Positions 57,001-64,000 of a DNA stretch of 64,000 nucleotides are shown piece after piece. The stretch's first letter is position 1. Each line of letters begins with the position of its first letter. Source of the DNA: Candidatus Levyibacteriota bacterium. Lineage in GTDB: Bacteria > Patescibacteriota > Microgenomatia > Levybacterales > UBA12049. A program made the position numbers. Location of the stretch: contig JBBSGT010000001.1 of NCBI GenBank assembly GCA_038253825.1, forward strand, positions 11,819 to 75,818. Reading direction: 5' to 3'.

Positions 57001-60000
57001 TTTCGCTGTGTACCTCATCGCAAAAGGATTTAGACCTTCTGCACTTTCCTTATTGTTCTCTAAAACTGATTAATTAATCAGTTTCCAAATCTCTAGTGTA
57101 TGAAATGCCACAGTATTGAGACATATATCAGTATTTGTATTTGGAATTCTCAGAATGTCTGGTAAACTCTAATGAAATAGCTCTGAAAGGTGTTCAATTC
57201 TGGTCTGAGTCGGCTCACTGAGAGTAATGTCATCATTATCACACATTCTAAAATTATTCATTGGTGTGATTTTTCTTTTGGTTTAAGCATTTCTACTTCG
57301 GGCAGATCCTTGCCTGAGGAGAAAGTCAGCTCGGCGTGAGAGATTTTCTTCCCAAGTGTGAAGCAAAACTTCTCATAGAAGCGAATCGCTTTCAGGTTAT
57401 ATTGTACAACCCCAAGCTTTACATCGCGGTTGCCTCCTAGCCACTCAAGCAAATGACTTAGCAAATCCGACCCAATTCCCATGCTTTGCCATTCAGGAAG
57501 GATGTATAGCGTTGCGATTTCATCAAACTCGTCTCCTTTGATTGCCCGCCCATATCCCACAATGTGTTCACCAGCGCGAGCGACCAAGGTGTAGTTGATC
57601 CCATCATTGACCTGCATATGCTCAGCTCTTTTTGCAATTCGTTCTTTACATAAAAAGTCCTTTGCAAATATGTCATCAGCATTGATCCTCAGCTCTTTAT
57701 TTTGGTAAGTATCCAACCATATCCGCTGCTTTATCCGTGCAAGAGTTTGAGCGTCTTGGGGTACTGCTTTGGCTATGGTAATTTTCGGTTTTGATGTTTT
57801 ATTACCTGGAAGTTGTTGCATTTTGTGCCTCTATAATTTGTAGCAATTATAACACAACAGCTGATTCTATTAAATTGTGATTGCAGAAATGTAAGGCATA
57901 TTCGCTTCAGTTCTGAAACTTGTGGGTCACCCAACACGAAAGCTTAATTGCATATTTTGTTTAACCTCAAATTATTTCCTACCCCGAAGTGATTCAAACC
58001 AGGAGCTAAGTTGACAATATTCGGCAAATTTGTATAAGTGAGTATATACATGAAGCTTGTTAAGAGTATCTATGAATTTGAATGGGATCATAGAATAACG
58101 GTAAAAATAAAAAACATAGCGTAGAAGATCAAAAAGCAGAAGAGGTCTTTTTCGATGAGGGAAAAGTAGTTTTTAAAGATAATATCTATTCAGGAACTGA
58201 AGAAAGGTTTATTATTTTAGGTCTTACAAAAAAGAACAGATTATTATATATAGCATTTACAAAAAGAAATAAAAAAATTAGAATAATATCAGCAAGAGAT
58301 ATAAACAAAAAGGAGGAACATTTGTATGAAGAAACAACTTAACGTACCAGTTTTTAAAAATGAAGATGAGGAGCGAAAGTTCTGGTCTGATCTTGATCTT
58401 TCTGAATATTTTGATTCGTCAGATTTTGAGAGAGTTAGTTTTCCTAATCTAAAACCTACAACGAGATCTATCTCTATCAGAATTCCTGAGTATCTCCTGA
58501 ATAGAGTAAAGGAAAAAGCCAATGAAATTAACGTACCTTACCAATCATTAATTAAAGAATATATTAAAAAAGGTACGTTATCTTCATAAGAAGTATTCGG
58601 AAGACCCTCTGGTATTCGAATTGGCGGAAATAGGCCGAATGGTGACCGTTTTCAAACAGATAGTGTAAGCGTTAAGATTCTTCCTGATACAAATACATTT
58701 GGCCAGATAAATAGAGCAATGGAACAAGAGTTACTGTTTGGCCGGAAGGTCATGTGGCAATAAAGAAATCAAAACAACGTCGACCACAAGTATAAATTAC
58801 TTTTTTTACTTTCTACCCAAATCCTGCTCGATTTAAGTTATTAATGATGTCTTACCCCCCTACGACACCTCCTCCTACTGCTCCAGCAGTAGCAGCTCCG
58901 GCAATTTCTGGTAGAGTTAATTCTTGCCCTTTGCGCGCTTCTTGACCGGGGTACACGACATTTTTAACTCCTTCTCGCACTTTTGAAGCATTATAAACAA
59001 CTGCTCCTACCACGCCTCCTCCTTCCACTCCGGGCGCTCTGGGGTCTTGTGCTCTTAATCGTAAGATTTCTGAAGATACTTTTAGAACTACATGTGCTGC
59101 TACTCCAGCTGCGGCGCCTTCAAAAGCATCGGGAAGGAGAGCACCCACTCCACCTTTTACTCCTTCACGCGTCACATGATCTCCGACTTTCTTTATATGT
59201 TCATACACTTTATTTGCGCTTTGACGTATCATTCCGAATCTATTTCTCTCTGGCATACACAAATATACTACTCGACATTAAACTTTTTTTCAACTTATTA
59301 TGTTTTTTTCACAAAGCGTACATGTATCATTGAAGGCAAAGTTGTAACTGTATCATCTATTTTTCTATCAGGATCTTTTTCGTCCCCCTGAAGTGATTGT
59401 ACATATCGTTCACCAAGTCGCCAAACTTCCTTCACTGTTGGTTCCATTTTTCTAATGAGTTGTTTAATTTGCTCGGACATGGGCGAGTTATGTGAAGTAC
59501 TAAGTGCGCTTTTAAAATTGTTCAGTGCCATTTCTGATTGAAAGGCGACAGTTGGTGCAATATATGCCGCTACCGCAGCTCTTATATCATTATGGTTAGA
59601 GATATTTTGAATTCGTACAATTTGTATGGCATCTTTGTCTTTGACTCCTTGTAATTTATTGTCGCTGGGCTTTTGTAATGAAAACGTATGCCAAAAAAAG
59701 TTATTATTTAATTTGTATATAGTATAAAATAAAGAGGGTTATTCTTCTCACAAAATATTCTCTTTTTATAGTATTGTCTGTCTACTCACCATCAAATGCA
59801 AAAGAAGAACTGTATGATTATATCTTGTGGAAACAAACTAATATATGTGAAGATATGCTAATCTTTTTAGGAGTTATACGGGCAAGAAAGTGTTTGCGAA
59901 TTAACGATTCCGAAAGACACACCAATAGTATTATTAATCAATCTAACATCCCGTAGTTGATTTTAGGCTTATAATGTGCTATTATCCCCCTTGCCTGGAG

Positions 60001-63000: not shown

Positions 63001-64000
63001 GCACCGTATCTTTTTTGTTGATCTTCTGTCCCATAAAGAATAACTGTTCGTGGCTGAAGGTCTGTTGTGTCAATCATATTATCTGATCTGCTTGTAGCAT
63101 TGAGGATTTGTTCGCCTTGAAAGGTATCAAGGATTGTCACTGCAAAAGCTGAAATAATATCAGCTGTTTTTTCATGTAGTCCTCCCCATTTATCTATGGT
63201 GCGATATGCTTCATGATATCCCTGGCGATTTTCTTCAAATTTTTTTATTTCAGCATGAAGTCGTGTAATCTCCACCACGTTTGCTCGTGCGGCAGGTCGT
63301 TGTGCGAGACGGATCATATCTGCATTCAGCATATTAATCGCAGCATCAGTATCGCTTCTCATCATGTCCAAAAGTCCTTCTATCTTTTCTTTGACAGGGT
63401 CATCAAGCTTTATAACTTCTCCTATCTCGGTAGATTTAGTGTTTTTATTTTCTTTACTTCTTTCAATACCAGCACGAATTGTTCCAACAGCATCTACAAA
63501 ATCTCTTATATCGCCACCTGATTTTGCGATAGTATGACCGATTGCAGCAGCAACATTACTCGCTTGTGGTACCCAAAAACCAGAATCAGAACCACCACCA
63601 TTCCCACCGAGCATCATGGAGGAATTGTCATATACAAGATCATCGATTGCTTCGATTGATCCTTGCCATGTCTCAAAGCGTTCCATGATTGGCCATGTTG
63701 CTCTATAGCCACCAAATTTTTCCAGTGCTCTTCCTTCTAAATTTTGCGGAGTCCATATTTGAACTCCTCCTTTCCATTGTGCTCGTGCATCAAAAATTGC
63801 TTCCACTGATTTACCTTTTAATTCCCAATCAATAAGCAACCCTTGCCAACTTGCTACCATTTCATGTAAATGTCCCGATGTTTTTCCAGCTCCTGTTCTC
63901 CCTGCAACAAGCACACTGATTCCAGCAAGAGCAGCAAGAACGCTTCCTTCAAATTTTCCTAGAGGAAGGCGGCCATCCCTTTCATAATTACCAGGATACC

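What the first reader, a model, noticed from the sequence alone, without database searches (positions are those of the whole stretch)
58850..64000. GC-rich segment encoding Gly-rich and Pro/Glu-rich repeat proteins plus a partial VirD4/HerA-like ATPase
Composition changes sharply (local GC about 45-57% versus about 35% elsewhere). ORFs here encode a Gly/Ala/Val-rich 136-aa protein, a secreted 187-aa protein, a 409-aa disordered protein with 24-aa C-terminal tandem repeats, and a 616-aa or longer P-loop ATPase ('VLVAGRTGAGKTS') whose 5' end is beyond the window. This combination (ATPase of the conjugative-coupling/HerA type plus secreted repetitive proteins) is reminiscent of mobile-element or secretion-associated cargo. 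It is not classifiable from here.
Basis: partly seen in the sequence, partly recalled or inferred. Interest (0 to 1): 0.5.

Follow-up and report, generated by a model that had tools for sequence, protein, structure and literature searches.

The report
Orphan coupling-protein ATPase beside ORFan genes
The end of this window, from a tiny "candidate phyla radiation" bacterium (Levybacteria), encodes a very divergent, membrane-anchor-less relative of the VirD4/TraG coupling ATPases of type IV secretion, standing alone between housekeeping genes and next to four genes with no relatives anywhere. It is an unusual example of a known phenomenon, not a mobile element.

Summary

The full gene, recovered from an identical public contig, encodes 867 aa. 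It has no transmembrane segment. Its Walker B reads R-N-E where the other sequences in a 61-sequence alignment almost all have h-D-E. It has one relative closer than remote (30% identity) among 1.84 billion representative proteins.

The "GC-rich segment" is patchy. Only two ORFs are GC-rich, and only at codon positions 1 and 2 (Gly/Ala/Pro/Glu content). GC3 is lower than in the rest of the window, so the GC rise is not evidence of foreign DNA.

The window and 2.2 kb beyond it hold no relaxase, VirB4, integrase or att repeat. The flanks are core genes (ABC-F, BacA, UvrA/C, MutS/L). The 408-aa and 186-aa proteins returned only themselves in protein searches; the 136-aa protein had no relative in a metagenome scan and no profile hit.

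Orphan T4CPs are already reported as common in Patescibacteria, and T4CPs without a membrane domain are a recognised subfamily. I file this as a new, divergent member of a known kind. Its function is inferred, not shown.

The parts
62151..64000 (-). C-terminal 616 codons of an 867-aa T4CP-family (VirD4/TraG/TrwB-like) ATPase. The gene would start at about 64754, outside the window. Walker A is GRTGAGKTS; Walker B is F-I-R-N-E. The all-alpha domain is enlarged and the last ~60 residues are disordered.
60870..62096 (+). 408-aa acidic protein rich in Pro/Gly/Thr/Glu, with an intrinsically disordered type of composition. Convergent with the ATPase gene, 54 bp apart. No relatives found.
   Evidence: Composition. 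Only itself found among 5.8 billion protein clusters. No Pfam, NCBIfam, PHROG or PADLOC hit. Frame-specific GC1>GC2>GC3 pattern supports coding.
61912..62044 (+). Two tandem 72-nt (24-aa) units, GELF.V.ADV.EPEQP..., near the C-terminus of the 408-aa protein.
   Evidence: the repeat finder family D1, 85% identity, spacing 72. Also found by self-BLAST.
60036..60596 (+). 186-aa protein with a charged N-terminus followed by one short hydrophobic stretch, a possible signal peptide or membrane anchor. Alternative starts are GTG at 59976 (206 aa) and ATG at 60069 (175 aa, as called in public records). No relatives found.
   Evidence: ORF list. Public gene calls. Only itself found. KD maximum 1.34. 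Single-sequence AF2 model unusable, pLDDT 36.
59298..59531 (-). Small ORF of 77 aa from the first ATG, called as 60 aa (59298-59480) in public records. It lies upstream of, and on the same strand as, the Gly-rich ORF.
   Evidence: ORF list. Public gene calls. No family hits. GC1/2/3 of 0.52/0.31/0.25 is typical of coding sequence here.
58852..59262 (-). Protein rich in Gly/Ala/Val (136 aa from TTG; 134 or 126 aa as called elsewhere) with three GxxxG-type stretches, possibly membrane-associated. No relatives found.
   Evidence: ORF list. Composition and KD maximum 1.32. GC1 0.71, GC3 0.26. No family hits. No relative in the JGI metagenome scan.

Best explanation
Shown.
- The window comes from the chromosome of a Candidatus Levyibacteriota (Patescibacteria/CPR) bacterium.
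- Its right end encodes an intact but very divergent member of the VirD4/TraG/TrwB type IV coupling protein family.
- That protein has a RecA-like nucleotide-binding domain with an inserted, enlarged all-alpha domain. It has a 280-residue soluble N-terminal extension in place of the usual transmembrane domain, and an acidic disordered tail.
- The gene stands alone between core genes. Beside it are four lineage-specific genes: a Gly-zipper-like small protein, a 60-aa protein, a 186-aa protein with a possible membrane anchor, and a 408-aa disordered acidic protein.
- The locally raised GC reflects the Gly/Ala/Pro/Glu content of two of these proteins, not imported DNA.

Inferred.
- The protein probably acts as other T4CPs do. 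It would assemble into a ring, bind a substrate through its all-alpha domain and tails, and hand it to a membrane channel.
- The most likely channel is the monoderm-type T4SS that most Patescibacteria encode elsewhere, near dnaA.
- Having no membrane domain, it would need a small membrane partner, as soluble TraJ of pIP501 is thought to be recruited by membrane-associated TraI. The neighbouring 186-aa and Gly-rich proteins are candidates.
- The disordered 408-aa protein is a candidate substrate or adaptor.
- The Asp-to-Asn change in Walker B suggests slow or regulated ATP hydrolysis, so the protein may work more as a nucleotide-dependent receptor than as a motor.

The confidence given covers the whole statement. 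The shown part alone (family, fold, no membrane domain, orphan chromosomal setting, origin of the GC signal) I would put at about 0.9, and the inferred mechanism at about 0.4.
For: Identity of the ATPase.
- Three Pfam T4CP models score above their cut-offs.
- The only NCBIfam hit is the VirD4-like CD1115 family of Firmicutes elements.
- A profile built from the protein and its search hits matches only Cagbeta, TrwB and DotL among PDB sequences.

No transmembrane domain.
- The most hydrophobic 19-residue window is the strand that leads into the P-loop.
- Canonical hits in alignment A1 carry hydrophobic N-terminal segments that this protein lacks.

Organism and chromosomal setting.
- Two public records name the same proteins as Candidatus Levyibacteriota.
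- Neighbouring genes are PolA, MutS, MutL (read from the translations), UvrA, UvrC, ABC-F and BacA.

Composition: GC3 is 0.20-0.26 against 0.30 for the rest of the window.

Literature.
- 5,713 VirD4-type T4CP homologues were reported in 2,918 Patescibacteria genomes, only 148 of them near virB4. The T4SS there is of the monoderm (MPF-FATA) type and mostly lacks a relaxase (PMC12102498).
- T4CPs lacking a transmembrane domain are a recognised subfamily (PMC7434980).
- TraJ of pIP501 is presumed to be recruited by membrane-associated TraI (PMC4981023).

Recurring neighbours: two of the three nearest TMD-less relatives are followed directly by a very long disordered-type protein, with hydrophobic fraction 0.12.
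Against: - No T4SS component was seen, and the rest of the genome could not be searched. Whether this organism has a channel is unknown.
- Walker B Asp is replaced by Asn, uniquely among the 61 aligned sequences. This could mean loss of activity.
- The 408-aa gene is convergent with the ATPase gene, not co-transcribed with it.
- None of the four neighbours has a homologue next to the related ATPases.
- The membrane-partner and substrate roles rest on position and composition only.
- The grouping with the other TMD-less proteins is loose: E 8e-14 and 2e-9, against 7e-12 for a canonical membrane-anchored hit.
Confidence: 0.55

Rival explanations
1. Decaying remnant of an integrated conjugative or mobilizable element. 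The coupling-protein gene and its ORFan neighbours would be what is left after the relaxase, integrase and channel genes were lost, and the ATPase would be on its way to becoming a pseudogene.
For: - Walker B Asp is replaced by Asn, uniquely among 61 sequences.
- The adjacent BrnT toxin gene is frameshifted while its BrnA antitoxin is intact.
- The five ORFs use synonymous codons slightly more atypically than any equal-sized run of genes in the window: Jensen-Shannon 0.0133 against a mean of 0.0065 and a maximum of 0.0121.
- All four neighbours lack detectable relatives.
- A tRNA-Lys gene lies 5.6 kb upstream.
Against: - The 867-codon reading frame is intact and identical in independent public assemblies.
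- There is no integrase, relaxase, att-like repeat of the tRNA, or flanking repeat.
- Ordinary genes (RibD_C, ABC-F, DUF4386, GNAT) lie between the tRNA and the block.
- GC3 shifts towards A/T by only about 0.05-0.10.
- The codon-usage excess is small, and the comparison sets overlap one another.
Confidence: 0.2
2. A coupling-protein fold exapted for a function that does not involve a T4SS, working together with an adjacent long disordered protein. One example would be a defence or DNA/protein-handling module, as the T4CP-like C-terminal domain of DptH works in Dnd restriction.
For: - None of the four loci that encode TMD-less relatives shows a T4SS gene or relaxase within 10 kb.
- Two of these relatives are followed directly by a very long disordered-type protein, and the window has one alongside.
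- The relative in L004 sits beside KwaB, Fic, a methyltransferase with a ResIII helicase, and a toxin-antitoxin pair.
- The literature leaves exaptation of patescibacterial T4CPs open.
Against: - No PADLOC defence model hits any of the five proteins.
- Sequence profiles hit T4CP families only.
- The disordered neighbours share no detectable sequence similarity, and the one in the window is convergent with the ATPase gene.
- The sample is four loci, two of them from one metagenome.
Confidence: 0.2
3. A housekeeping HerA- or FtsK/SpoIIIE-type translocase.
For: - The flanking genes are core genes.
Against: - No DUF87, HerA or FtsK_SpoIIIE Pfam hit down to E 0.1.
- Foldseek gives HerA E 3e-5 and TM 0.33, against Cagbeta 8e-12 and TM about 0.5-0.6.
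- The profile search of PDB sequences returns T4CPs only.
- The TraG-D_C and TrwB all-alpha regions are present.
Confidence: 0.02

Closest known systems
VirD4/TrwB/Cagbeta type IV coupling proteins (Pfam PF02534, PF12696, PF10412)
   Same: - Nucleotide-binding domain with Walker A.
- Conserved Glu of Walker B, Gln and Arg positions.
- Inserted all-alpha domain and acidic C-terminal tail.
   Different: - No N-terminal transmembrane domain. A 280-residue soluble extension takes its place.
- Walker B Asp is Asn, with Arg before it.
- The all-alpha region is longer, with a long helical hairpin.
- Only 11-14% identity to solved T4CPs.
- Not next to any T4SS or relaxase gene.
TMD-less two-partner coupling protein TraJ/TraI of pIP501 (monoderm MPF-FATA T4SS)
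   Same: - Soluble T4CP in a monoderm-type setting.
- Presumed need for a small membrane protein encoded nearby.
- The Patescibacteria T4SS is reported to be of the same monoderm class.
   Different: - TraJ sits inside a 15-gene tra operon directly after traI, with a relaxase.
- Here there is no operon, no relaxase, and the candidate membrane partners are unrelated ORFans.
- No direct sequence comparison with TraJ was possible.
Orphan VirD4-type T4CP homologues of Patescibacteria (PMC12102498)
   Same: - Chromosomal and far from virB4, with no relaxase, in a CPR genome.
- Function unknown, exaptation considered possible.
   Different: - This one has only one relative closer than remote (30% identity) among 1.84 billion representative proteins.
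- It carries the Walker B change.
- Whether the reported homologues lack membrane domains is not stated in the passages read.
DptH (DndH) C-terminal ATPase domain of Dnd restriction
   Different: - No PADLOC hit.
- No Dnd genes nearby.
- Sequence profiles point to T4CP families instead.

Membership tests
Type IV coupling protein (VirD4/TraG/TrwB) | Sequence match to the family profiles above curated thresholds | tested here: met
   T4SS-DNA_transf 39.9 bits (cut-off 20.1), TraG-D_C 37.4 (22), TrwB_AAD_bind 22.8 (20.5). A family profile hits only Cagbeta, TrwB and DotL among PDB sequences.
Type IV coupling protein (VirD4/TraG/TrwB) | RecA-like nucleotide-binding domain with an inserted all-alpha domain (TrwB fold) | tested here: met
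Type IV coupling protein (VirD4/TraG/TrwB) | Walker A (GxxGxGKT/S) and Walker B (hhhhDE) | tested here: inconclusive
   Walker A is intact (GRTGAGKTS). Walker B reads F-I-R-N-E: the Glu is kept, but Asp is replaced by Asn, which is seen in 1 of 61 aligned sequences (57 have D, 2 have E). The effect on activity was not tested.
Type IV coupling protein (VirD4/TraG/TrwB) | N-terminal transmembrane domain (VirD4 type) | tested here: not met
   There is no TM-grade hydrophobic segment. The KD19 maximum of 1.59 is the pre-P-loop strand. Canonical hits have such segments. A TMD-less T4CP subfamily is recognised (PMC7434980), so this excludes the VirD4 type but not the family.
Type IV coupling protein (VirD4/TraG/TrwB) | Genomic association with a T4SS (VirB4) and/or a relaxase | tested here: not met
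   None was found in the 64-kb window or the 2.2 kb beyond it. The rest of the genome could not be searched. Most patescibacterial T4CPs are likewise far from virB4.
VirD4-like CD1115 family (NCBIfam NF045973) | Score above the equivalog cut-off | tested here: not met
   42.8 bits against a cut-off of 250. It is the nearest named subfamily only.
HerA / FtsK-SpoIIIE translocases | Match to family profiles and best fold match | tested here: not met
Integrative conjugative or mobilizable element | Integrase or relaxase, att repeats at a tRNA, foreign composition | tested here: not met
   No such genes. No repeat of tRNA-Lys and no flanking repeats. GC3 is not raised. Synonymous codon usage is only mildly atypical.
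Anti-phage defence systems (PADLOC models, including Dnd/DptH) | Match to a defence-protein model | tested here: not met
   No hit for any of the five proteins at E up to 0.1.

The most novel reading that the evidence does not exclude
The window's ATPase and a few TMD-less relatives (P0002, P0003, P0011) would form a separate, rare branch of the coupling-protein family. This branch would have left type IV secretion and would work with an adjacent long intrinsically disordered protein. The ATPase ring would thread, export or remodel that protein, or use it as a scaffold, in a system that has not yet been described.
Probability: 0.15. Interest if true: 0.7.

Novelty: new member of a known kind. 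Interest (0 to 1): 0.3.

Why it matters
Patescibacteria are thought to depend on a monoderm-type T4SS for their epibiotic life. What their thousands of orphan coupling-protein genes do is an open question. This locus gives an extreme case: no membrane domain, an altered catalytic motif, almost no relatives, and a disordered acidic protein alongside. It could be used to test whether such proteins still feed a T4SS or have taken on another role. For genome scanning, it also shows that a local GC rise in a low-GC genome can come entirely from Gly/Ala/Pro-rich proteins, and should be checked at the third codon position before horizontal transfer is invoked.

Tried and rejected
1. Word-indexed protein searches with the full ATPase, the 408-aa protein and the 186-aa protein each returned only the query itself.

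2. Scans for relatives found nothing.
- ATPase against GTDB genomes, IMG/VR viral contigs and JGI metagenomes.
- Gly-rich protein against JGI metagenomes.
- A four-sequence alignment was too divergent to seed a scan.

3. Synteny test anchored on the ABC-F gene. Thirteen related Levybacteria-like loci were retrieved at 71-86% identity. None shares any neighbour within 10 kb, apart from a partial RibD_C match in L010 and a weak match to the 573-aa protein in L018. So it cannot be said whether the block is an insertion.

4. I suspected that the C-terminal tail shared by the genes around the closest homologue (L003) also ends the 408-aa protein and the ATPase here. An HMM of that tail finds nothing in the window (best E above 1, none at those C-termini). 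Rejected.

5. Sequence similarity among the disordered neighbours of the related ATPases, and with the window's proteins: none.

6. PHROGs, PADLOC and lenient Pfam searches gave no hit for the four small proteins.

7. Rfam on 57-64 kb gave nothing. Promoter and terminator scans were at chance level.

8. A single-sequence AF2 model of the 186-aa protein was unusable, pLDDT 36.

The AFDB50 library was unavailable.

10. phmmer of the single sequence against PDB gave no meaningful hit. Only the profile did.
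Full report
**Observation**

- A 136-aa Gly/Ala/Val-rich ORF at 58852-59262(-).
- A 186-aa ORF at 60036-60596(+).
- A 408-aa ORF at 60870-62096(+).
- A P-loop ORF on the minus strand from 62151, open for 616 codons to the window end.

The 24-aa repeat in the 408-aa protein consists of two 72-nt units that are 85% identical.

**Composition**

The composition claim holds only in patches. The region averages 40.9% GC against 38.1% for the rest of the window. 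The Gly-rich ORF is 47.9% and the 408-aa ORF 46.5%. The stretch between them is 33.6%, and the ATPase gene is 41.0%.

Splitting GC by codon position shows where the excess lies. It is in positions 1 and 2: GC1 is 0.66-0.71 in those two ORFs. GC3 in all five ORFs is 0.20-0.26, below the window mean of 0.30+-0.04. The GC rise therefore follows from the Gly/Ala/Pro/Glu content of the proteins and does not indicate foreign DNA.

The same frame-specific pattern supports these ORFs as real coding sequences. Synonymous codon usage of the block is only mildly atypical: Jensen-Shannon 0.0133, against a mean of 0.0065 and a maximum of 0.0121 for 36 overlapping runs of genes of equal size.

**Organism and context**

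Exact-sequence look-up found the 408-aa protein on an NCBI MAG contig (GCA_050997215.1) and on a 12-kb Logan contig (L002). L002 is identical where checked and runs 2.2 kb beyond the window. NCBI names the proteins as Candidatus Levyibacteriota.

L002 shows that the ATPase is 867 aa long. It is followed, divergently, by BacA, the undecaprenyl-diphosphatase.

The window otherwise encodes core genes.
- PolA-, MutS- and MutL-like proteins, read from the translations.
- UvrA and UvrC.
- An ABC-F protein, two RibD_C proteins, a DUF4386 protein and a GNAT acetyltransferase.

No relaxase, VirB4, integrase or other T4SS component was found by Pfam, NCBIfam or PHROGs in any large ORF. The tRNA-Lys at 53212-53284 has no downstream repeat, and the block has no flanking repeats.

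**The ATPase**

*Family assignment.*
- Pfam gives T4SS-DNA_transf (3.3e-10), TraG-D_C (2.9e-9) and TrwB_AAD_bind (4.8e-5), all above their gathering scores, with no HerA or FtsK family.
- The only NCBIfam hit is the VirD4-like CD1115 family of Firmicutes elements, far below its equivalog cut-off.

*Rarity.*
- An exhaustive phmmer search of 1.84 billion representative proteins gave only 61 hits at E<=1e-3.
- Apart from the query's own partial record (P0001), only one hit is more than remote: P0002, 1879 aa, 30% identity, E 4e-62.

*Structure.*
- With these hits as the alignment, AlphaFold2 gave a confident model, pLDDT 82 and pTM 0.79.
- Foldseek ranks Cagbeta (8e-12) and TrwB (1e-8) first. HerA comes far behind, at about 3e-5 and TM 0.33.
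- A profile of the alignment hits only Cagbeta, TrwB and DotL among PDB sequences.

Membership of the T4CP family is therefore well supported.

*Three departures from the canonical form.*
- There is no transmembrane domain. The most hydrophobic window is the strand before the P-loop, whereas canonical hits carry hydrophobic N-terminal segments.
- The first 280 residues form a soluble extension. It is partly shared with P0002 and, more weakly, with P0003. P0002, P0003 and P0011 also share a D-x-Y/H-P-G motif before the conserved G-R-x-x-L-G.
- Walker B reads F-I-R-N-E. The Asp is Asn in this protein alone among the 61 aligned sequences, while the Glu is retained.

**The neighbours**

The 408-aa protein has a hydrophobic fraction of 0.16 and a net charge of -30, and no hydrophobic N-terminal segment. 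Searches returned only itself. The 186-aa protein likewise returned only itself. It has a single weakly hydrophobic N-terminal stretch, so the label 'secreted' is possible but not shown.

The Gly-rich protein has three GxxxG-type stretches and no relative in the metagenome scan. None of the four hits Pfam, NCBIfam, PHROGs or PADLOC.

The gene layout is two divergent pairs, 60-aa with Gly-rich on the minus strand and 186-aa with 408-aa on the plus strand. The ATPase gene is convergent on the 408-aa gene.

**Relatives elsewhere**

The three nearest TMD-less relatives also lie away from any T4SS gene. P0003 and P0011 are each followed directly, on the same strand, by a 980-aa and a 762-aa protein with hydrophobic fraction 0.12.

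This pairing with a long disordered protein recurs. However, the sample is small, the disordered proteins share no sequence similarity, and the one in the window is on the opposite strand.

**Comparison with what is known**

A 2025 survey found 5,713 VirD4-type T4CP homologues in 2,918 Patescibacteria genomes, only 148 of them near virB4. It reported a T4SS of the monoderm MPF-FATA class, mostly without a relaxase. It noted that the orphan t4cp of Southlakia epibionticum was not essential for epibiotic growth, so exaptation 'cannot be ruled out' (PMC12102498).

T4CPs lacking a membrane domain are a recognised subfamily (PMC7434980). Its model is soluble TraJ of pIP501, which is presumed to be recruited to the membrane by TraI, encoded just upstream (PMC4981023).

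The locus therefore fits a known category: an orphan patescibacterial T4CP of the TMD-less kind. It is an outlier within that category in sequence and in its Walker B motif.

**Mechanism**

The family, the fold, the lack of a membrane domain, the chromosomal orphan setting and the origin of the GC signal are all shown.

The rest is inferred. The protein would form a ring that binds a substrate and docks on a T4SS encoded elsewhere through a small membrane partner. The 186-aa or Gly-rich protein could be that partner, and the 408-aa protein a substrate or adaptor.

Two rivals remain open at about 0.2 each.
- *A decaying remnant of a mobile element.* For: the Walker B change, the frameshifted BrnT gene next door, and the mild codon-usage deviation. 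Against: the intact 867-codon frame and the absence of any element hallmarks.
- *A T4SS-independent exaptation with the disordered partner.* For: the DptH precedent and the contexts of the relatives. Against: no defence-model hit.

The HerA/FtsK reading is contradicted.

**Verdict**

This is a real feature, correctly located. The ATPase was classified correctly in outline. The mobile-element reading and the composition argument are not supported. I file it as a new, divergent member of a known kind, of moderate-to-low interest. The conserved ATPase-plus-disordered-protein idea has a small chance of pointing to something new.

Noticed in passing
L003:1-22223 (Logan SRR30654424 contig holding P0002, the closest homologue of the ATPase): Twelve or thirteen of the 13 complete genes, including the ATPase homologue itself, end in the same C-terminal tail: [VI][FY].[RK]YG[ILV], then about 15-25 Pro/Glu/Gln/Thr-rich residues, then P.E[IV][DE]E-stop. 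Their N-termini also look alike. Most have no Pfam match, and several have weak sigma-70 region hits. It looks like a shared tag on an unknown element. It is not present in the window.
   Followed up: partly
window:58051-58327: The BrnT toxin gene upstream of an intact BrnA (CopG-type) antitoxin gene (58326-58589) is frameshifted. The first ~24 codons are in one frame. The rest (58094-58327; Pfam BrnT_toxin 2.6e-20, profile positions 10-77) is in another, with the break in an A-rich run.
   Followed up: yes
window:21893-30958: Six consecutive genes for surface proteins of the Firmicutes WxL type. Pfam was run on five of them. It gave two WxL-domain proteins, two WxL-interacting peptidoglycan-binding (WxLIP_PGBD) proteins, one of them with a LytR_C domain, and a 915-aa SdrD_B-like protein. 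The sixth gene was not scanned. It is an unusual cell-surface cluster to see in a CPR genome.
   Followed up: partly
window:49419-53071: Two large ORFs (641 aa on the plus strand, 573 aa on the minus strand) have no convincing family match and the lowest hydrophobic fractions among the window's other genes (0.26 and 0.27). The 573-aa protein has a 32%-identical relative near the ABC-F gene in one related genome (L018).
   Followed up: no
L007, L008, L009, L012, L015 (genome-contig hits to the ABC-F protein): Contigs labelled 'uncultured Gammaproteobacteria', 'Candidatus Sulfotelmatobacter' and 'Candidatus Limnocylindrales' encode ABC-F proteins 71-86% identical to the Levybacteria one. One of them is a single 1.32-Mb contig. 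These records are probably mislabelled or mis-binned Patescibacteria.
   Followed up: no
L007-L019 versus window:53424-64000: Gene order around the ABC-F gene is not conserved at all among 13 relatives whose ABC-F proteins are 71-86% identical. This suggests rapid rearrangement in this lineage.
   Followed up: partly
window:58590-58850: About 260 bp between the BrnA and Gly-rich genes holds no listed ORF of 60 aa or more, and I did not examine it further.
   Followed up: no
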